Of a stretch of DNA of 44,293 bases, positions 4,073 through 14,560 are shown piece by piece. The stretch comes from Escherichia phage vB_EcoP-UTI89UKE2. The notes under the pieces were generated by a model that made no database searches, was not told where the DNA came from, and saw nothing but the letters and a program-made list of their open reading frames with translations. Numbering within the stretch: position 1 is the stretch's first letter; the number at the start of each line of letters is the position of its first letter. The stretch is from sequence record MZ234049.1; one strand, given 5' to 3'. A program made the translations under genes and the position numbers.

Positions 4073-6061
4073 ATGGCTATTATTCAGAATGTACCGTGTC
4101 CTGCCTGTCAAAAGAATGGACATGATATTACTGGCAACCATCTTATGATATTTGAGGATGGCGCTGGTTACTGTAACCGTGGTCACTTCCATGATAACGG
4201 CAAGCCTTATTACCATAAGCCAGAGGGTGGCATCGAGATAACCGAATTACCTATTACTGGCAATATCAAATATACACCTTCTCAGTTTAAAGAGATGGAG
4301 AAGGAAGGGAAGATTAGCGACCCTAAGCTACGCGCCATCGCACTTGGTGGTATGCGTATGAAAGACCGTTGGGAGGTCATGAATGAGCAAGAAAGGGCAG
4401 AACAAGAAGCAGAGTGGAAACTTGATGTTGAATGGTTCCTCACGCTTAAGCGTAAGAATCTTGTTTCCCGACACATTCGCGGCGACATTTGCGCATTGTA
4501 CGATGTACGTGTCGGACACGATGAAGATGGTAGAGTCTCACGGCATTACTATCCACGCTTCGAGAAAGGTGAGCTAGTAGGCGCTAAGTGTCGCACATTA
4601 CCTAAAGACTTTAAGTTTGGTCATTTAGGTAAACTCTTTGGTATGCAAGATCTTTTCGGTATGAATACTTTGTCTCACGTGTTAGACAAGGGAAGACGAA
4701 AGGATTGCTTGCTTATTGTGGGCGGCGAACTGGATGCACTAGCAGCACAGCAAATGCTCCTTGATTCTGCCAAGGGTACTAAGTGGGAAGGCCAGCCTTA
4801 CCATGTATGGTCTGTCAATAAAGGTGAGTCTTGCCTTGAAGAGATAGTACAGAACCGTGAACACATCGCCCAATTTAAGAAGATTATATGGGGTTTTGAT
4901 GGAGATGAGGTAGGGCAGAAGCAGAATCAGCAAGCGGCTCGCCTGTTTCCTGGCAAATCCTATATCCTTGAATACCCTTCTGGTTGCAAAGATGCTAACA
5001 AGGCATTGATGGCTGGCAAGGCTAAAGAGTTTGTTGATGCTTGGTTTAATGCCAAGTCATCTGATGAAGTCTTTGGTAGCCAGATTAAATCTATCGCATC
5101 TCAAAGGGATAAGCTCAAGGCTGCACGTCCAGAGCAAGGGCTATCATGGCCTTGGCCTAAGCTGAACAAGGTAACGCTAGGTATTCGTAAGAACCAGCTT
5201 ATCATTGTAGGTGCAGGTTCTGGTGTAGGTAAGACTGAGTTCCTCCGCGAAGTGGTTAAACATCTCATTGAAGAACACGGTGAATCTGTAGGCATCATTT
5301 CTACAGAAGACCCAATGGTCAAGGTGTCCCGTGCTTTTATCGGCAAGTGGATTGATAAGCGTATTGAGTTACCGCCAACCAACGACCCGAAAGAAGACGG
5401 ATACCGTGAGGTGTTCGACTACACCGAGGAAGAAGCTAACGCTGCCATTGATTATGTAGCTGATACAGGAAAGCTATTTGTGGCTGACCTAGAAGGCGAT
5501 TATTCTATGGAGAAGGTAGAGCAAACTTGCCTAGAGTTTGAGGCTATGGGCATTTCTAATATCATCATTGATAACTTAACGGGGATTAAATTAGATGAGC
5601 GTGCTTTTGGTGGGAAGGTTGGTGCACTTGATGAATGCGTCAAACGAATTGGTACTATCAAAGACCGACATGCGGTTACGATTTTCCTTGTCTCTCACCT
5701 TACACGTCCTCCGGCAAACCGTACCCAACACGAAGAAGGTGGCGAAGTTATCCTTTCTGACTTCCGAGGCTCAGGCGCTATCGGATTCTGGGCATCTTAC
5801 GCCTTGGGGATTGAGCGTAATACAAGAGCTGAAACGCTTGATGAAAGGACTACCACGTACATCTCGTGTGTCAAAGACCGCGATCAAGGTATCTACACTG
5901 GAACCAAGGTCATGCTTAAAGGTGACATTCAGACCGGACGTTTGATGGAACCACAAGCCCGTACTAAGTCATTTGATACAGGTGAAGCAAGGCAGCAAGA
6001 GGTGCCTGATTTACCGGACACTATAGAAGAGACAAACTTTGAAGATGAACAGGAGTTTTAA
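4073..6061 (+). CDS. DNA primase/helicase (T7 gp4-like)
   Basis: N-terminal Cys4 zinc ribbon (CPACQKNGHD...YCNRGH), Walker A GAGSGVGKTEF, and a C-terminal acidic tail ending FEDEQEF as in T7 gp4. Confidence 0.93.
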   Translation: MAIIQNVPCPACQKNGHDITGNHLMIFEDGAGYCNRGHFHDNGKPYYHKPEGGIEITELPITGNIKYTPSQFKEMEKEGKISDPKLRAIALGGMRMKDRWEVMNEQERAEQEAEWKLDVEWFLTLKRKNLVSRHIRGDICALYDVRVGHDEDGRVSRHYYPRFEKGELVGAKCRTLPKDFKFGHLGKLFGMQDLFGMNTLSHVLDKGRRKDCLLIVGGELDALAAQQMLLDSAKGTKWEGQPYHVWSVNKGESCLEEIVQNREHIAQFKKIIWGFDGDEVGQKQNQQAARLFPGKSYILEYPSGCKDANKALMAGKAKEFVDAWFNAKSSDEVFGSQIKSIASQRDKLKAARPEQGLSWPWPKLNKVTLGIRKNQLIIVGAGSGVGKTEFLREVVKHLIEEHGESVGIISTEDPMVKVSRAFIGKWIDKRIELPPTNDPKEDGYREVFDYTEEEANAAIDYVADTGKLFVADLEGDYSMEKVEQTCLEFEAMGISNIIIDNLTGIKLDERAFGGKVGALDECVKRIGTIKDRHAVTIFLVSHLTRPPANRTQHEEGGEVILSDFRGSGAIGFWASYALGIERNTRAETLDERTTTYISCVKDRDQGIYTGTKVMLKGDIQTGRLMEPQARTKSFDTGEARQQEVPDLPDTIEETNFEDEQEF

Positions 6062-6988: not shown

Positions 6989-7075
6989 ATGACTAAAGTT
7001 CTAATTTATAAACAACGAGGTCTTAAGGCTTATGCTATTGTAGCACCAAATGGTGTTAAAAAAAGTAAGTTGTAA
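6989..7075 (+). CDS. small ORF (28 aa)
   Basis: AGGAG RBS then ATG at 6989; TAA at 7073-7075. Confidence 0.25.
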   Translation: MTKVLIYKQRGLKAYAIVAPNGVKKSKL

Positions 7076-11155: not shown

Positions 11156-11176
11156 TTACTGGACACTATAGAACAA
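11153..11176 (+). promoter_or_regulatory. phage RNAP promoter (TAATTACTGGACACTATAGAACAA)
   Basis: Consensus core; overlaps the stop of the upstream ORF. Confidence 0.75.
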
Positions 11177-11226
11177 TAGGTCGGCTTAGTTCGGCCTATG
11201 ATTGTAAAGTGTTGAACCGCCTTTTG

Positions 11227-11257
11227 TGCATCTTGCACAACCCGATACTATATCGGG
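11227..11257 (+). promoter_or_regulatory. 5' leader stem-loops (GTGCATCTTGCAC and CCCGATACTATATCGGG)
   Basis: Two adjacent perfect hairpins between the promoter and the 268-aa gene; candidate RNase III site or mRNA stabiliser. Confidence 0.4.
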
Positions 11258-11319
11258 CTTTCTAGTGAGTACATGCTTGTGCTCAGTACAAAGCTAACTG
11301 ACAATAGGAGACTAAATAA

Positions 11320-12126
11320 ATGGCACGTGGTGATTTTGATTTTGGTGCTCAGGTTACTAAAGCTGAAGGTAAAGTATTTAAGAACCCTGAAGTTGGTGAT
11401 CATGAAGCAGTAATCTCTGGCATCATTCATGTTGGTTCCTTCCAAGATATCTTTAAGAAAGGTAATACCACTGAAGTTAAGAAGCCAGCAAACTTTGTTC
11501 TTGTTAAGATTGTCCTGATGGGCGACGATGATAAGAACGAAGATGACTCTCGCATGGAACAATGGATGGCTGTGCCTCTGAAGTCTGGTGATAAGGCAAC
11601 ACTAACTAAGTTCCTGAATGCAGTTGACCCTAAAGAGTTGCTGGGTGGCTTCGATGATTTTATCGGTGAATGTCTGACTGCAACTATGGTTGGCTCTGGC
11701 GACAAGAATGATGATGGTACTTTCAAGTATGTTAACTGGAAAGGCTTTGGTGGTATGCCGGATAAGCTGAAGAAACTTGTCATTGCTCAGGTTGAAGAAG
11801 AGGGTCTGTCTATGACAGGTCATATTACCTTCGACAAGCTGACCAAAGAAATCCTTGATGATATTCCTGCTAACTTGGTGCGTCAATACTTCCTGAACGA
11901 GACGCCTCGTGGCAAGAACCTGTCTGTTGCTGGCTCTCACGTAGAAGCAATCATCAAAGCTGCTCGTGAAGAAGACCCAGAGTGGAAGAAAGCTAAGAAG
12001 AAAGATGAAGAGGATGCCACTCCAGCTAATCGTAGATCTCTGGATACCGGCGAGTCTGTTCCACAGGAAGTACCTGAAGCGGAGGACAACCCTGCACCTG
12101 AAATGGATGAAGACGCGGAATACTAA
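11320..12126 (+). CDS. hypothetical protein (268 aa); candidate ssDNA-binding protein
   Basis: Strong ORF with RBS, own promoter and structured leader; acidic C-terminal tail ending EMDEDAEY, reminiscent of T7 gp2.5; N-terminal GDFDFGAQV. Function assignment is inference. Confidence 0.75.
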   Translation: MARGDFDFGAQVTKAEGKVFKNPEVGDHEAVISGIIHVGSFQDIFKKGNTTEVKKPANFVLVKIVLMGDDDKNEDDSRMEQWMAVPLKSGDKATLTKFLNAVDPKELLGGFDDFIGECLTATMVGSGDKNDDGTFKYVNWKGFGGMPDKLKKLVIAQVEEEGLSMTGHITFDKLTKEILDDIPANLVRQYFLNETPRGKNLSVAGSHVEAIIKAAREEDPEWKKAKKKDEEDATPANRRSLDTGESVPQEVPEAEDNPAPEMDEDAEY

Positions 12127-12135
12127 GGAGGGCGG

Positions 12136-12354
12136 ATGAAAGTACAAATTGTAACTCTGCATTGCAAGAAAGGCATCACCACGCTTGGCGGTGGCACTTT
12201 CCACTCCTTCTCCGAAGGAGACACATACTCTGACCTGCACTACATCTGGCGCGATGGGCAGCACGTGGTGAACTATAGTGACCCGGCTACGGGGAAGCGC
12301 CACGGCGTATCGCTTCCGGCGCATGACATTGCTCAGGTGAACACAGTTTTATAA
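12136..12354 (+). CDS. hypothetical protein (72 aa)
   Basis: RBS AGGAGGG then ATG at 12136. Confidence 0.5.
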   Translation: MKVQIVTLHCKKGITTLGGGTFHSFSEGDTYSDLHYIWRDGQHVVNYSDPATGKRHGVSLPAHDIAQVNTVL

Positions 12355-12355
12355 A

Positions 12356-12371
12356 GTCTCACGTGTGAGAC
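12356..12371. promoter_or_regulatory. palindrome variant GTCTCAC-GT-GTGAGAC
   Basis: Same arms as the other palindrome copies; sits between a gene end and a promoter. Confidence 0.5.
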
Positions 12372-12386
12372 AAATCGGTGTCCGGT

Positions 12387-12409
12387 ATTTACTGGACACT
12401 ATAGAAGAG
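12387..12409 (+). promoter_or_regulatory. phage RNAP promoter (ATTTACTGGACACTATAGAAGAG)
   Basis: Exact consensus. Confidence 0.8.
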
Positions 12410-12459
12410 AAGAATTTTAATCGGCGATAATGCCATAACCAACAAAAGGAGAATTTAAT

Positions 12460-12831
12460 ATGTTCAAGATTGAAACTATCGTAAACCGTGTTGTTAAAGG
12501 TGCTGCTCTGGTATCCGTTGAGTCTTTCATTATCGTCGATGAAGCTGATCAACTGGTAGCTGGTACTAAGGCTTACGATACCCGTGAAGAAGCTCAGGCT
12601 AAGATTGACAGCATGGGTAACTTCGCTGCTGGTCTGGAGTTCGCTCGTGCTTGCTTCCCTGAGCAGGCTGACAAAGCCCAGATCGGGAAGGCTAACATCG
12701 TAGCTGAATATCTGGATTGGATTGCTGCTGGTAAACCAGTGAAAGAAGTTAAAGCTGCTGAAGAAGCTGAAGCTCCTGCAGTAGAAGTGTCTGCACCGGA
12801 AGCTCCGGTTAGCGAAGAGGAAGAGTTTTGA
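12460..12831 (+). CDS. hypothetical protein (123 aa) with acidic C-terminal tail ending SEEEEF
   Basis: RBS AGGAG; promoter upstream and strong terminator downstream suggest a highly expressed monocistronic unit. Confidence 0.7.
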   Translation: MFKIETIVNRVVKGAALVSVESFIIVDEADQLVAGTKAYDTREEAQAKIDSMGNFAAGLEFARACFPEQADKAQIGKANIVAEYLDWIAAGKPVKEVKAAEEAEAPAVEVSAPEAPVSEEEEF

Positions 12832-12889
12832 TAATAGCAGGTGTAGCCTCTGTTAGTCCTAGTTGACTATCACGCTCACCTCATCTAAT

Positions 12890-12924
12890 GCCCTGTCTGC
12901 CTTAGTGTAGGCAGGGTCTTTTGC
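12890..12924 (+). terminator. intrinsic terminator-like hairpin (CCCTGTCTGCC-loop-GGCAGGGTC followed by TTTTG)
   Basis: GC-rich perfect stem plus U-run directly after the 123-aa gene. Confidence 0.7.
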
Positions 12925-12948
12925 GTAATAGTTATTGGAGAATGAATT

Positions 12949-13221
12949 ATGCCGACTATTGAATCTCGAATTGAACTGGACATTAGCTACAATGCAATCA
13001 CCAGACAGTATATTGGGGTTGCCTATGATTACAAAACTGGTGAGAAGCTAGTGGAGGTGAGACAATGGGATGACTATTGGTTAAGACAGAACCTCCATGA
13101 TGCGGTGTCCTCCTTCTTGAAGGAGTGGCCTACATGCGACCAAACTTCGACTTCGGAGCTACAGTATCGGAAGACAATAATCTCATCCTGTGGCCGACTG
13201 AAGGTAATCGAATCGCTTTAA
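12949..13221 (+). CDS. hypothetical protein (90 aa), overlaps the exonuclease start by about 88 nt in another frame
   Basis: RBS GGAGA then ATG at 12949. Confidence 0.4.
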   Translation: MPTIESRIELDISYNAITRQYIGVAYDYKTGEKLVEVRQWDDYWLRQNLHDAVSSFLKEWPTCDQTSTSELQYRKTIISSCGRLKVIESL

Positions 13222-14162
13222 TAGATGCTGATATGTTACCCTACATCGTAGGTTATACAATCAGTGACATGACTTATTTACGAGCCACAACTCGTGTTAA
13301 GTCAGGACAAGTCCCATCAATCAAAGATACGCCTGAGTGTAAGCAAGCGTGTGACCGTGTGAACTCCTTGCTTAACTCTTGGGTGTATGCAGCAGAATGT
13401 GATGCAGCTAAGTTATTCATGACGAAATCAGAAGCTAACTTCCGTGTCCGCCTAGCATTCACCAAGCCTTATAAAGGTCAACGTAAGACCGAGAAGCCTC
13501 CATTCTTCTATGAATTGCGAGAGCATCTCTTAGAGGTTCACGGTGCAATCTTGGCAGATGGAGAGGAAGCAGACGACCTCATGAGTATCGCACAATGGGA
13601 CAGCCACCGCCGCTTCCAGCAAGATACAGGTAACGAGTTCCCTATCGGTAGTCCAGAGCATAAAGCATTCTCTGATACTTGCATCGTTTCCTTGGATAAG
13701 GATTTGATGATTGTTCCCGGTTGGCATCTACAGCCGGGTCAAGAGAAGAAGTGGGTAGAGCCTATGGGCTGGCTTGAGTTACGCCGCAAAGCTAATGGTC
13801 AAGTCAAAGACCTAAAAGGTGCTGGCCTTATGTTCCATTATGCACAGATGATTATCGGTGATGATATTGATAACTATGCTGGCATACCTGGTCGTGGTGC
13901 TAAATATGCCTATGATCTTCTCAAAGGTTGTAAGACAGAGAAAGAATTGTACATGGCAGTGCTTGGTGCTTACAAAGCTAAGTTCGGTCATGGACAGGTT
14001 AAGATTAAGAATTACCGAGGTGGTTATCGGGTGGGCAAAGCCTTTGACCTTATGCTTGAATGCGGTCGCTTAGCTCACATGGCTAGGTTCAAAGGTGATA
14101 TATGGAGAGCCGATAAGAACCCAATCTTGTGGGGAGATGATGCGGAATGGTTAGCAAATTAA
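13134..14162 (+). CDS. 5'-3' exonuclease (T7 gp6 / FEN-like)
   Basis: Motifs IALIDADMLPY, GEEADDLMS, SLDKDLMIVPG and GDDIDNYAGIPGRG; RBS AGGAG at 13121-13125. Confidence 0.85.
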   Translation: MRPNFDFGATVSEDNNLILWPTEGNRIALIDADMLPYIVGYTISDMTYLRATTRVKSGQVPSIKDTPECKQACDRVNSLLNSWVYAAECDAAKLFMTKSEANFRVRLAFTKPYKGQRKTEKPPFFYELREHLLEVHGAILADGEEADDLMSIAQWDSHRRFQQDTGNEFPIGSPEHKAFSDTCIVSLDKDLMIVPGWHLQPGQEKKWVEPMGWLELRRKANGQVKDLKGAGLMFHYAQMIIGDDIDNYAGIPGRGAKYAYDLLKGCKTEKELYMAVLGAYKAKFGHGQVKIKNYRGGYRVGKAFDLMLECGRLAHMARFKGDIWRADKNPILWGDDAEWLAN

Positions 14163-14560
14163 AAGCATCGGAGGTGGCAGCTTATAAGAAGGAATTGCTA
14201 GATAAGCAAGGATGGAAATGCCCTCTGTGTGGTGGCAGTCTCAAAGCTGTCACACCTGTAAACCGTGTACTTGACCATGACCATGAGACAGGATTCTGCC
14301 GTGCTGTTGTATGCCGAGGTTGCAATGGTGCGGAAGGGAAGATTAAGGGTGTTATCTCTGGTTATGGCAAGGCGGGTAATAACCGTTACTTCCAGCTTCA
14401 ATGGTTAGAGAGATTGTATGAATACTGGAAGTTACATAGTACGCCTCAGACAGATAAGTTATATCACAAACATCAAACGGAGGCAGAGAAGCGCGAGGCT
14501 AAGAACCGTAAGGCACGCCTTGCTTATGCAAGAAAGAAGAAGGAGGTTAAAGTTGGGTAA
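14147..14560 (+). CDS. endonuclease VII-like Holliday junction resolvase
   Basis: CPLCGG ... DHDHETG ... CRGCNGAEGK, the zinc-binding and catalytic signature of the T4 endo VII family. Confidence 0.8.
   Translation: MVSKLKASEVAAYKKELLDKQGWKCPLCGGSLKAVTPVNRVLDHDHETGFCRAVVCRGCNGAEGKIKGVISGYGKAGNNRYFQLQWLERLYEYWKLHSTPQTDKLYHKHQTEAEKREAKNRKARLAYARKKKEVKVG

What the first reader, a model, noticed from the sequence alone, without database searches (positions are those of the whole stretch)
11320..13200. Shared N-terminal motif FDFGAxV on the 268-aa protein and the 5'-3' exonuclease
The 268-aa protein starts MARGDFDFGAQVTKAEG and the exonuclease starts MRPNFDFGATVSEDNN. Identity across FDFGA-V at the extreme N-terminus of two otherwise unrelated proteins suggests a short linear interaction motif, such as a shared docking site on a replisome partner, or a recent recombination exchange of 5' gene ends.
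Basis: seen in the sequence. Interest (0 to 1): 0.42.

Follow-up and report, generated by a model that had tools for sequence, protein, structure and literature searches.

The report
Shared N-terminal docking arm, SSB-like/exonuclease
Two unrelated DNA-replication proteins of this K1E/SP6-like phage, a probable single-stranded-DNA-binding protein and a flap exonuclease, carry the same short peptide on a floppy N-terminal arm; it is conserved across a large group of related phages, so it most likely works as a shared docking handle, whose binding partner is not yet known.

Summary
In detail: FDFGAQV (aa 6-12 of the 268-aa protein) and FDFGATV (aa 5-11 of the exonuclease). Within this one genome it is only marginally beyond chance (shuffle p≈0.06). 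Comparative data make it real. F-x-x-G sits in the first 20 residues of 44/44 full-length homologues of the 268-aa protein and of 115/118 exonuclease homologues, down to about 35-40% identity. F and G are invariant in both families. Profile-profile comparison aligns only the N-termini (E≈7e-5).

AlphaFold2 puts both motifs on low-confidence N-terminal arms, ahead of an OB-fold SSB-like core with an acidic C-tail ending in Tyr, and ahead of a FEN-fold nuclease core. No third protein family with the arm turned up among 1.84 billion representatives. Exonucleases of T7, LUZ24-like and other distant podophages lack it, and the distant relatives of the 268-aa protein lack the motif too.

The two arms are more alike within a genome than between genomes, with no excess of shared synonymous codons. 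This points to protein-level co-constraint, not recent recombination.

Best reading: a shared docking motif. The most likely acceptor is the SSB-like core itself, with the exonuclease mimicking a self-association arm (precedents: ICP8 FNF, PrgE N-tail, gp32/RNase H). The acceptor is inferred, not shown.

The parts
11160..11174 (+). SP6/K1E-type phage promoter-like site upstream of the 268-aa gene
   Evidence: One of 10 matches to TGGACACTATAGAAG with up to 2 mismatches, all on the + strand; 0.14 expected by chance.
11320..12126 (+). Gene for the 268-aa SSB-like protein (K1E/K1-5 gp16; GenBank 'hypothetical protein', phrog_862)
11320..11373 (+). Predicted flexible N-terminal arm of the SSB-like protein (aa 1-18)
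   Evidence: pLDDT below 50 for residues 1-18.
11335..11355 (+). Motif FDFGAQV (aa 6-12) of the SSB-like protein
   Evidence: F6, G9 and A10 are invariant in 32 homologues. F-x-x-G is present in 44/44 full-length homologues.
12010..12123 (+). Disordered acidic C-terminal tail ending in Tyr (aa 231-268, ...PEMDEDAEY)
   Evidence: pLDDT below 50 over most of 231-253 and low to the end. The last residue is Y or F in 43/44 homologues. Same architecture as the T7 gp2.5 tail (PMC12339929).
12393..12407 (+). Phage promoter-like site heading the transcription unit that contains the exonuclease gene
   Evidence: Exact match to TGGACACTATAGAAG.
13134..14162 (+). Gene for the 342-aa 5'-3' (FEN-type) exonuclease (K1E/K1-5 gp20)
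   Evidence: ORF and RBS (AGGAG 13121-13125). phrog_107 exonuclease, E 6e-73. AF2 mean pLDDT 94. Foldseek matches ExoIX, T4 RNase H, T5 FEN and mycobacterial FenA, E 1e-4 to 4e-8.
13134..13208 (+). N-terminal arm of the exonuclease (aa 1-25), ahead of the first beta-strand of the nuclease core
   Evidence: Mean pLDDT 57 for aa 1-10 and 77 for aa 11-20; no secondary structure before strand 27-31. Distant exonucleases start directly at this strand (M[RK]xLIDxD).
13146..13166 (+). Motif FDFGATV (aa 5-11) of the exonuclease
   Evidence: F5 and G8 are invariant in 49 homologues whose mean column identity is 42%. F-x-x-G is present in 115/118 homologues.

Best explanation
The peptide F-[DN]-[FY]-G-[AG]-[ED]-[VIL] is a docking motif carried on a flexible N-terminal arm. 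SHOWN: it is conserved at the extreme N-terminus of two otherwise unrelated families, lies in low-confidence (probably disordered) segments, is confined to these two families, and the two copies in one genome resemble each other more than copies from different genomes without sharing codons. INFERRED: both arms bind the same acceptor site. The acceptor I think most likely is the OB-fold core of the 268-aa protein itself. This protein looks like the phage's gp2.5-type SSB: an OB core plus an acidic C-tail ending in Tyr, which by analogy would contact the DNA polymerase. Its N-arm would hook onto the neighbouring monomer and give cooperative, head-to-tail coating of ssDNA. The exonuclease would have acquired a copy (mimic) of that arm and would use it to plug into the free acceptor pocket at one end of an SSB-ssDNA filament. 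That would place the nuclease at the ss/ds junction for primer or flap removal or for end resection, in competition with further SSB addition. I put the general claim (a functional shared docking motif) at about 0.75 and this specific acceptor at about 0.4.
For: Conservation: 44/44 SSB-like and 115/118 exonuclease homologues; F and G invariant in both. The only profile-profile similarity is N-terminal, and the profile hits are reciprocal. Flexibility: pLDDT below 50 for aa 1-18 of the SSB-like protein, and mean 57 for aa 1-10 of the exonuclease. Exclusivity: a 33-position arm profile against 1.84 billion representative proteins gave 26 hits at E<=1e-3, and every N-terminal hit was SSB-like length (244-273 aa), exonuclease length (346-419 aa) or a fragment of one of them. 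No third carrier was found in the window or in three complete related genomes. Co-occurrence: in all 59 loci holding both genes with an arm, both genes have it. Distant podophage exonucleases (L069, L072-L083, T7, PAA2) start at beta-1 without an arm, and their weak SSB-like relatives lack FDFG. L056/57 lost it from both genes. Co-variation: same-genome arm identity is 5.29/10 against 4.38/10 between genomes (permutation p<5e-5, 41 distinct pairs). With one representative per exonuclease cluster and 7 adverse test cases added it is 5.07 against 4.34, p=0.006 (14 clusters), or p=3.5e-4 (21 clusters). Examples are the G/G state in Colwellvirinae and E/E in L060. There is no excess of shared synonymous codons (42.4% vs 39.7%), so the constraint acts on the protein. 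SSB identity: OB-fold matches, and an acidic tail with a terminal aromatic residue that is also found on the primase-helicase, as in T7 gp2.5 and gp4 (PMC12339929). If the C-tail already covers polymerase contact, the N-arm is free for another job. Precedents: the best structural match, PrgE, oligomerises on DNA through its N-terminal tail binding the next monomer (PMC11137577). HSV ICP8 uses an F-[N/D]-F motif in a disordered tail to dock into a hydrophobic pocket of the next monomer, and this is essential for cooperative binding (PMC12409425). T4 gp32 lacking its N-terminal cooperativity peptide gains high affinity for the FEN-type RNase H (PMC3012046).
Confidence: 0.4

Rival explanations
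1. Both arms dock on a third protein that acts as a hub: the phage DNA polymerase, the primase-helicase or a host factor. The SSB-like protein and the exonuclease would then compete for, or be handed over at, one site. This resembles PIP-box or clamp-binding-motif 'tool-belt' exchange in a replisome that has no clamp.
For: All the conservation, flexibility and co-variation evidence fits a co-evolving third partner equally well. In T4 the FEN-type RNase H carries its clamp-binding PIP-like peptide at the N-terminus (PMC3012046).
Against: Only two families carry the arm, although a hub would be expected to recruit more clients. The SSB-like protein and the primase-helicase already carry the gp2.5/gp4-type acidic tail with a terminal aromatic residue, which in T7 makes the polymerase contact. 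The motif does not resemble the bacterial clamp-binding consensus QL[SD]LF (consensus from my own knowledge; compared by eye). Relatives of the SSB-like family in outgroups also have a short N-terminal peptide while their exonucleases have none. That suggests the arm belongs primarily to the SSB.
Confidence: 0.3
2. The arm acts in cis in each protein, for example as a lid, an autoinhibitory peptide or a DNA-contacting wedge that folds back on its own core when DNA binds. The similarity would then reflect a shared local structural solution or common descent of a small N-terminal element.
For: The motif is followed in both proteins by a loosely similar stretch (hydrophobic-hydrophobic-x-x-P-x-x-G-x-x-x-A-hydrophobic-hydrophobic) that leads into the first beta-strand. 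Exonuclease residues 11-20 are predicted with moderate confidence (pLDDT 77). The ICP8 FNF tail can also dock intramolecularly (PMC12409425).
Against: AF2 gives no packed conformation for the motif in either protein. The two cores have different folds (OB versus FEN), so the same peptide would need two different cis sites. Within-genome co-variation is not expected for independent cis roles. The post-motif similarity is not significant on its own.
Confidence: 0.12
3. The match is chance, or the product of a recent recombination or gene conversion between the 5' ends of the two genes, with no shared function.
For: Within the window alone a 6/7 N-terminal match is only marginally unusual (5.6% of shuffles). 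In one metagenomic lineage (L056) the two replaced N-termini share a 10-nt identical stretch.
Against: The motif is conserved in both families down to about 35-40% identity, with invariant F and G. In the window only 1 of 6 codons and 17/30 nt are shared, and there is no excess of shared codons across 41 genomes.
Confidence: 0.03

Closest known systems
HSV-1 ICP8 'FNF' self-association motif
   Same: An F-[N/D]-F peptide in a disordered terminal tail of a viral ssDNA-binding protein. In ICP8 it docks into a hydrophobic pocket of the neighbouring monomer and is required for cooperative ssDNA binding and filament formation (PMC12409425). The phage motif is F-[D/N]-[F/Y], literally FNF in several homologues, and also sits in a low-confidence tail.
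   Different: ICP8's motif is C-terminal and ICP8 is a large, unrelated protein. No second protein is known to copy the ICP8 motif. Here the motif is N-terminal, extends to G-A-E-V, and no binding has been shown.
PrgE (pCF10) N-terminal tail and T4 gp32 N-terminal B-domain (cooperativity arms of monomeric SSBs)
   Same: PrgE is the best structural match of the 268-aa protein. Its N-terminal tail binds the neighbouring monomer on ssDNA, and deleting 12 residues abolishes oligomerisation (PMC11137577). The gp32 N-terminal peptide gives cooperativity, and removing it unmasks high affinity for the FEN-type T4 RNase H (PMC3012046). So an SSB arm and a FEN nuclease appear to compete for the SSB core.
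   Different: There is no sequence similarity to either arm. T4 RNase H contacts gp32 through its C-terminal domain, not through a peptide that mimics the gp32 arm.
T7 gp2.5 and gp4 acidic C-terminal tails with terminal Phe
   Same: One short terminal peptide type is shared by two different replisome proteins that use it for the same partner, the DNA polymerase. The window has this feature too: primase-helicase ...EDEQEF and 268-aa protein ...DEDAEY (PMC12339929).
   Different: That is a C-terminal, acidic, low-complexity tail. The finding concerns a hydrophobic N-terminal motif shared by the SSB-like protein and the exonuclease. T7 gp2.5 and gp6 lack it.
Oligomerisation-motif mimicry: RAD51 FxxA motif copied by BRCA2 BRC repeats (own knowledge)
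   Same: A partner protein carries a copy of the self-association peptide of a DNA-coating protein and uses it to occupy the same pocket.
   Different: Eukaryotic, unrelated proteins and a different motif.
PIP-box and beta-clamp-binding motifs (including the N-terminal PIP-like peptide of T4 RNase H)
   Same: A short linear motif on a flexible terminus, shared by several replication or repair proteins. It is N-terminal in a phage FEN nuclease (PMC3012046).
   Different: SP6-like phages encode no clamp that I could see in the window annotation. The sequence does not fit QL[SD]LF or the PIP consensus. Only two client families exist.

Membership tests
Short linear motif (SLiM) on a disordered terminus | Short (3-10 residues), with a few fixed positions | tested here: met
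   F1 and G4 are fixed. Position 2 is D/N(/E), position 3 is F/Y (A or M in a minority), position 5 is mostly A, position 6 is E/D and position 7 is V/I/L.
Short linear motif (SLiM) on a disordered terminus | Lies in an intrinsically disordered or flexible segment | tested here: met
   AF2 pLDDT is below 50 for aa 1-18 of the 268-aa protein and averages 57 for aa 1-10 of the exonuclease, with no secondary structure. This is a prediction only.
Short linear motif (SLiM) on a disordered terminus | Conserved in orthologues although the flanks vary | tested here: met
   44/44 and 115/118 homologues carry it, while the linker after the motif varies (GGG-rich versus acidic).
Short linear motif (SLiM) on a disordered terminus | Binds a defined pocket on a partner | not testable with these tools
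   Complex prediction and binding assays were not available.
FEN / 5'-3' exonuclease family (for the 342-aa protein) | PIN-like FEN fold | tested here: met
   Foldseek matches ExoIX, T4 RNase H, T5 FEN and FenA at probability 1.00, E 4e-8 to 1e-4. phrog_107, E 6e-73.
FEN / 5'-3' exonuclease family (for the 342-aa protein) | Conserved carboxylate clusters for metal binding | tested here: met
   D31, D33, E145, D147, D148, D188, D190, D243 and D246 are invariant in 49 homologues. They were not mapped onto the active site residue by residue.
FEN / 5'-3' exonuclease family (for the 342-aa protein) | Pfam 5_3_exonuc (H3TH/SAM) domain at the curated threshold | tested here: inconclusive
   PF01367 scores 23 bits against a cutoff of 40. 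A family profile found no PDB sequence hit.
T7 gp2.5-type phage SSB (for the 268-aa protein) | OB-fold core | tested here: met
T7 gp2.5-type phage SSB (for the 268-aa protein) | Disordered acidic C-terminal tail ending in an aromatic residue | tested here: met
   ...PEMDEDAEY. The last residue is Y or F in 43/44 homologues, and the tail has low pLDDT. Compare T7 gp2.5 ...DEDGDF.
T7 gp2.5-type phage SSB (for the 268-aa protein) | Detectable homology to gp2.5 | tested here: not met
   The family HMM finds nothing in the T7 replication region (best E 0.94). There is no PDB sequence hit at E<=10. gp2.5 is not among the top 50-60 structural matches. I therefore call the protein 'SSB-like' by architecture, not a gp2.5 family member.
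T7 gp2.5-type phage SSB (for the 268-aa protein) | Binds ssDNA | not testable with these tools
   Needs EMSA or fluorescence anisotropy.
ICP8-type F-[N/D]-F filament motif | F-[N/D]-F in a disordered tail of an SSB | tested here: met
   F-[D/N]-[F/Y/A] in the arm, with low pLDDT. The ICP8 motif definition is from PMC12409425.
ICP8-type F-[N/D]-F filament motif | Docks into a hydrophobic pocket of the adjacent monomer and is needed for cooperativity | not testable with these tools
   No complex modelling or biochemistry was possible.
Bacterial beta-clamp-binding motif | Consensus QL[SD]LF / QxxLxF | tested here: not met
   The motif logo has no Q and no L-x-F pattern. The consensus is from my own knowledge.

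The most novel reading that the evidence does not exclude
A so far undescribed recruitment principle in a large group of T7-like podophages (Molineuxvirinae, Colwellvirinae, Gajwadongvirus and uncultured relatives). The phage SSB would polymerise on ssDNA through an N-terminal F-D-F-G-A-E-V arm, convergent with the herpesvirus ICP8 FNF motif. The FEN exonuclease would carry a molecular mimic of that arm and use it to cap or dock onto the SSB filament at a defined end. The two arms and the acceptor pocket would co-evolve. The same exonuclease family may swap terminal SSB-mimicking peptides more generally, since one lineage carries a bacterial SSB-like ...EEDDIPF C-terminus.
Probability: 0.35. 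Interest if true: 0.65.

Novelty: new variant of a known kind. Interest (0 to 1): 0.5.

Why it matters
The replisome of SP6/K1E-like phages has hardly been studied biochemically. The 268-aa protein is annotated 'hypothetical' in GenBank and has no Pfam family. The finding gives it a testable identity: the phage SSB, with two separate interaction tails. It also predicts a specific physical link to the primer-removal and recombination exonuclease, which can be tested with short peptides and point mutants (F6, F8, G9; F5, F7, G8). If the mimicry model holds, it would be a compact bacterial-virus counterpart of ICP8 FNF-mediated filament formation and of RAD51/BRC-type motif mimicry. It would also explain how a clamp-less replisome positions its flap nuclease. 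In practice the motif marks this exonuclease/SSB pair in metagenomic podophage contigs. It also matters for engineering these K1-capsule and Klebsiella therapeutic phages, where N-terminal tagging of either protein would probably be harmful.

Tried and rejected
1. Recent DNA exchange. Codon comparison shows no excess of shared synonymous codons, so I rejected it for this phage.

2. A longer homologous module of about 31 aa. hhalign and the HMMs extend the alignment to the first beta-strand, but the hit disappears once the 7-aa motif is removed. I do not claim it.

3. Strict residue-by-residue co-variation. The first 41 pairs suggested it at motif position 5 (A/A, G/G, E/E, never A/G). A targeted prediction test on 7 further contigs gave 0/7 exact matches. 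I downgraded this to a modest but still significant same-genome excess.

4. A third carrier family. I searched the window six-frame ORFs, three complete related genomes and 1.84 billion representative proteins and found none. The internal hits in long repeat proteins matched only the WPxxG half of the profile.

5. Membership of the 268-aa protein in the gp2.5 family. Sequence or structure searches did not support it.

6. Pfam gave nothing useful for the 268-aa protein.

7. Literature. 'FDFGA' occurs in no held paper, and two keyword searches for SP6/K1-5 SSB or exonuclease motifs found nothing relevant.

8. The similar Lys-rich replacement N-termini in L056.
Full report
IDENTITY OF THE REGION

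The window is Escherichia phage vB_EcoP-UTI89UKE3, a K1E/K1-5/SP6-like podophage (Autographiviridae, Molineuxvirinae, Vectrevirus). It is 100% identical to the GenBank record over 11200-14200. The finding spans two genes.

- The 268-aa ORF 11320-12126 (+) is K1E/K1-5 gene 16. GenBank calls it 'hypothetical protein'. It has no Pfam family and belongs to phrog_862, function unknown.
- The 342-aa 5'-3' exonuclease ORF 13134-14162 (+) is gene 20 and belongs to phrog_107.

Both have good ribosome-binding sites. Each lies downstream of an SP6/K1E-type phage promoter-like site, at 11160-11174 and 12393-12407.

CHECK OF THE OBSERVATION

The quoted N-termini are correct. A six-frame scan finds FDFGA.V only at 11335-11355 (aa 6-12) and 13146-13166 (aa 5-11). 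The two proteins are otherwise unrelated: profile-profile comparison of the two family alignments aligns 31 N-terminal columns and nothing else (E 7.8e-5 and 6.1e-5).

Taken alone the match is weak evidence. In 2000 shuffles of 60 annotated proteins of this phage, a match of at least 6/7 between windows starting at residues 2-13 appeared in 5.6% of cases. Comparative data are what make it real.

CONSERVATION

I collected 46 homologues of the 268-aa protein and 120 listed homologues of the exonuclease from about 5.8 billion proteins.

- All 44 full-length homologues of the 268-aa protein have F-x-x-G within the first 20 residues, with F at residue 3-6.
- 115 of 118 full-length exonucleases have it, with F at residue 2-12. 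Two of the three exceptions look like mis-called starts.
- F and G are invariant columns in both alignments. In the exonuclease alignment the mean column identity is only 42%, and the other invariant residues include the acidic residues typical of FEN nucleases.
- The consensus is F-[DN]-[FY]-G-[AG]-[ED]-[VIL].
- Each family's N-terminal profile picks the other protein as its best non-self hit among 682 six-frame ORF segments of the window (E 0.0035 and 0.014; next best 0.46 and 6.1).

The alignment extends loosely to the first beta-strand of each core. When the 7-aa motif is cut off, no significant similarity remains. I therefore claim only the short motif.

STRUCTURAL CONTEXT

AlphaFold2 with family alignments gave these models.

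- The 268-aa protein (mean pLDDT 80) has a beta-rich core. Residues 1-18 are below pLDDT 50, and the C-terminal roughly 38 residues are low-confidence.
- The exonuclease (mean pLDDT 94) has mean pLDDT 57 for residues 1-10 and 77 for residues 11-20. There is no secondary structure before the first strand at residue 27.

So both motifs sit on flexible N-terminal arms.

Its C-terminus (...PEMDEDAEY) is acidic and ends in Y or F in 43 of 44 homologues. This is the architecture of T7 gp2.5, whose acidic tail with a terminal Phe contacts the T7 DNA polymerase (PMC12339929). The primase-helicase of the window ends ...FEDEQEF, as T7 gp4 ends ...SNDTDF. I therefore treat the 268-aa protein as the phage's probable SSB by architecture, not as a demonstrated gp2.5 homologue.

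The exonuclease has a FEN fold, matching ExoIX, T4 RNase H and T5 FEN.

DISTRIBUTION

I examined 80 IMG/VR loci found with the exonuclease alignment, three complete genomes (PP99, AS51, BUCT553) and 8 contigs fetched by exact protein look-up.

- Wherever the exonuclease has the arm and upstream sequence is available, an SSB-like gene with the arm lies 1-2.5 kb upstream on the same strand. This holds in 59 loci with both genes.
- More distant podophage exonucleases start directly at the first beta-strand (M[RK]xLIDxD). These are L069, L072-L083, T7 gp6 and LUZ24-like PAA2. The weak SSB-like relatives found beside some of them start MALNANKV... or MSLNAAKV..., without FDFG.
- In L056/57 both proteins have lost the motif.
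- A 33-position arm profile run against 1.84 billion representative proteins gave 26 hits at E<=1e-3. Every N-terminal hit had SSB-like or exonuclease length, or was a fragment of one of the two. The remaining hits were internal repeats matching only the WPxxG half of the profile.

The arm is therefore specific to these two families. It occurs in a group covering Molineuxvirinae, Colwellvirinae, Gajwadongvirus and uncultured relatives.

CO-VARIATION AND DNA-LEVEL TEST

Across 41 distinct arm pairs, the two arms of one genome share 5.29 of 10 positions, against 4.38 for arms from different genomes (permutation p<5e-5). Examples:

- FDFGA/FDFGA in the SP6/K1E clade;
- FDYGG/F[DN]YGG in Colwellvirinae;
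- FDFGE/FDMGE in L060;
- F[DN]YGT[KE]EE / FDYGC[KN]EE in another clade.

I then tried to break this. I fetched 8 contigs whose exonuclease or SSB-like protein had an unusual residue at motif position 5; 7 of them carried both genes. None of the 7 matched exactly at that position (G/A, E/D, T/E, T/V, T/A, C/A, A/D). With these cases included and one representative per exonuclease cluster, the same-genome excess persists but is modest: 5.07 against 4.34, p=0.006 for 14 clusters, and p=3.5e-4 for 21 clusters. These p-values are not fully corrected for phylogeny.

At identical residues the two genes of one genome use the same codon in 42.4% of cases, against 39.7% for cross-genome pairs. In the window it is 1 of 6 codons and 17 of 30 nucleotides. 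The resemblance is therefore maintained at the protein level, not by recent recombination or gene conversion.

HOW IT MOST LIKELY WORKS

Shown: a conserved short motif on flexible N-terminal arms of two unrelated, syntenic replication proteins. It is exclusive to them, gained or lost together, and partially co-varying.

Inferred: it is a docking motif and both arms address the same acceptor (about 0.75).

More speculative: the acceptor is the OB core of the SSB-like protein itself (about 0.4). Three precedents point this way.

1. [quoted passage not shown] Deleting 12 residues abolishes oligomerisation (PMC11137577).
2. HSV-1 ICP8 uses an F-[N/D]-F motif in a disordered tail to dock into a hydrophobic pocket of the next monomer. 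Alanine substitution abolishes cooperative binding and filament formation (PMC12409425). The phage motif is F-[D/N]-[F/Y].
3. In T4, removing the N-terminal cooperativity peptide of gp32 yields a protein with high affinity for the FEN-type RNase H (PMC3012046). This suggests that the SSB's own arm and the nuclease compete for the SSB core.

In this model the C-tail of the SSB-like protein serves polymerase contact, as in T7. The N-arm gives head-to-tail cooperativity. The exonuclease carries a mimic of the arm that plugs into the free pocket at one end of the SSB-ssDNA filament, placing it at the junction where primers, flaps or 5' ends must be processed. Outgroup SSB-like proteins have a short N-terminal peptide while their exonucleases have none. 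This suggests that the exonuclease arm is the derived copy.

RIVALS

- A third-party hub (DNAP, primase-helicase or a host factor) explains the same data and cannot be excluded (0.3). Against it: there are only two client families, and acidic C-tails already exist for polymerase contact.
- A cis-acting structural role (0.12) fits poorly with two different folds, the low-confidence arms and the within-genome co-variation.
- Chance or recent recombination (0.03) is contradicted by the conservation and by the codon data.

NOVELTY AND VERDICT

The string FDFGA occurs in none of the roughly 8 million held papers, and keyword searches found no description of this motif or of the SP6/K1-5 SSB. The kind of thing is familiar: a short terminal peptide shared by replisome proteins. 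The motif itself, its N-terminal position, the SSB-like/FEN pairing and the possible arm mimicry are new as far as I can tell. I rate it 'new variant of a known kind' with interest 0.5.

The main gap is that no complex could be modelled or assayed. AF-Multimer on SSB-SSB, SSB-exonuclease and arm-peptide/replisome pairs, plus delta-N and F-to-A mutants, would settle it.

Noticed in passing
window 4073-6061, 11320-12126, 12460-12831: Three replication-module proteins end in an acidic tail with a terminal aromatic residue: primase-helicase ...NFEDEQEF, the 268-aa SSB-like protein ...MDEDAEY, and a 123-aa protein of unknown function (phrog_4429) ...VSEEEEF. T7 gp4 (...SNDTDF) and gp2.5 (...DEDGDF) show the same pattern and use it to bind the DNA polymerase. 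The 123-aa protein may be a third client of that site.
   Followed up: partly
window 12949-13221 versus 13134-13221: A 90-aa ORF (phrog_10319, annotated 'DNA repair protein' in K1E/K1-5) overlaps the first 88 nt of the exonuclease gene in another frame. That stretch encodes the whole exonuclease arm. GenBank MZ234050 does not annotate this ORF; it lists a short ORF at record coordinates 12936-13052 instead. In Vibrio phage AS51 the exonuclease does not overlap its upstream gene, so the arm is conserved regardless of the overlap.
   Followed up: partly
L056 4740-5627 and 5938-7035 (IMGVR_UViG_3300036466_000208; same in L057): In this metagenomic podophage both the SSB-like protein and the exonuclease lack FDFG. 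Both instead start with a Lys-rich peptide (MAKKDKKAAPAEE... and MGKKKQKLKAAPEWD...) and share a 10-nt identical stretch, GCAGCTCCAG. The exonuclease ends ...PVEEDDIPF, which resembles the C-terminal tip of bacterial SSB (...DDDIPF, from my own knowledge).
   Followed up: partly
L061-L067, L070, L071 (exonuclease C-termini): Exonucleases of one uncultured clade end in a conserved [ST]-[FY]-P-x C-terminus (e.g. ...SQSFPA, ...KGTFPA, ...KGSYPL). This feature is absent from the K1E/SP6 clade, whose exonucleases end ...WGDDAEWLAN.
   Followed up: no
window 6015-37883, + strand (10 sites): There are ten SP6/K1E-type promoter-like sites matching TGGACACTATAGAAG with up to 2 mismatches; 0.14 are expected by chance. 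They include 10391, 11160, 12393, 15561, 20642, 33418, 35523 and 37869. A perfect 16-nt palindrome, GTCTCACGTGTGAGAC, lies at 12356-12371 between gene 17 and the 12393 promoter.
   Followed up: partly
window about 7058-7065: The window differs from GenBank MZ234050.1 by a homopolymer length (A7 versus A8) in an intergenic or small-ORF region. At least one further difference lies downstream.
   Followed up: no
L077 1426-2139, L082 4358-5065, L083 985-1689: Weak relatives of the 268-aa family (E 4e-8 to 6e-5) in more distant podophages start with a different short conserved N-terminal peptide (MSLNAAKV... or MALNANKV...) and also end in an acidic tail with a near-terminal aromatic residue (...ENNPY, ...AVNPYG). 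The exonucleases next to them have no N-terminal arm.
   Followed up: partly
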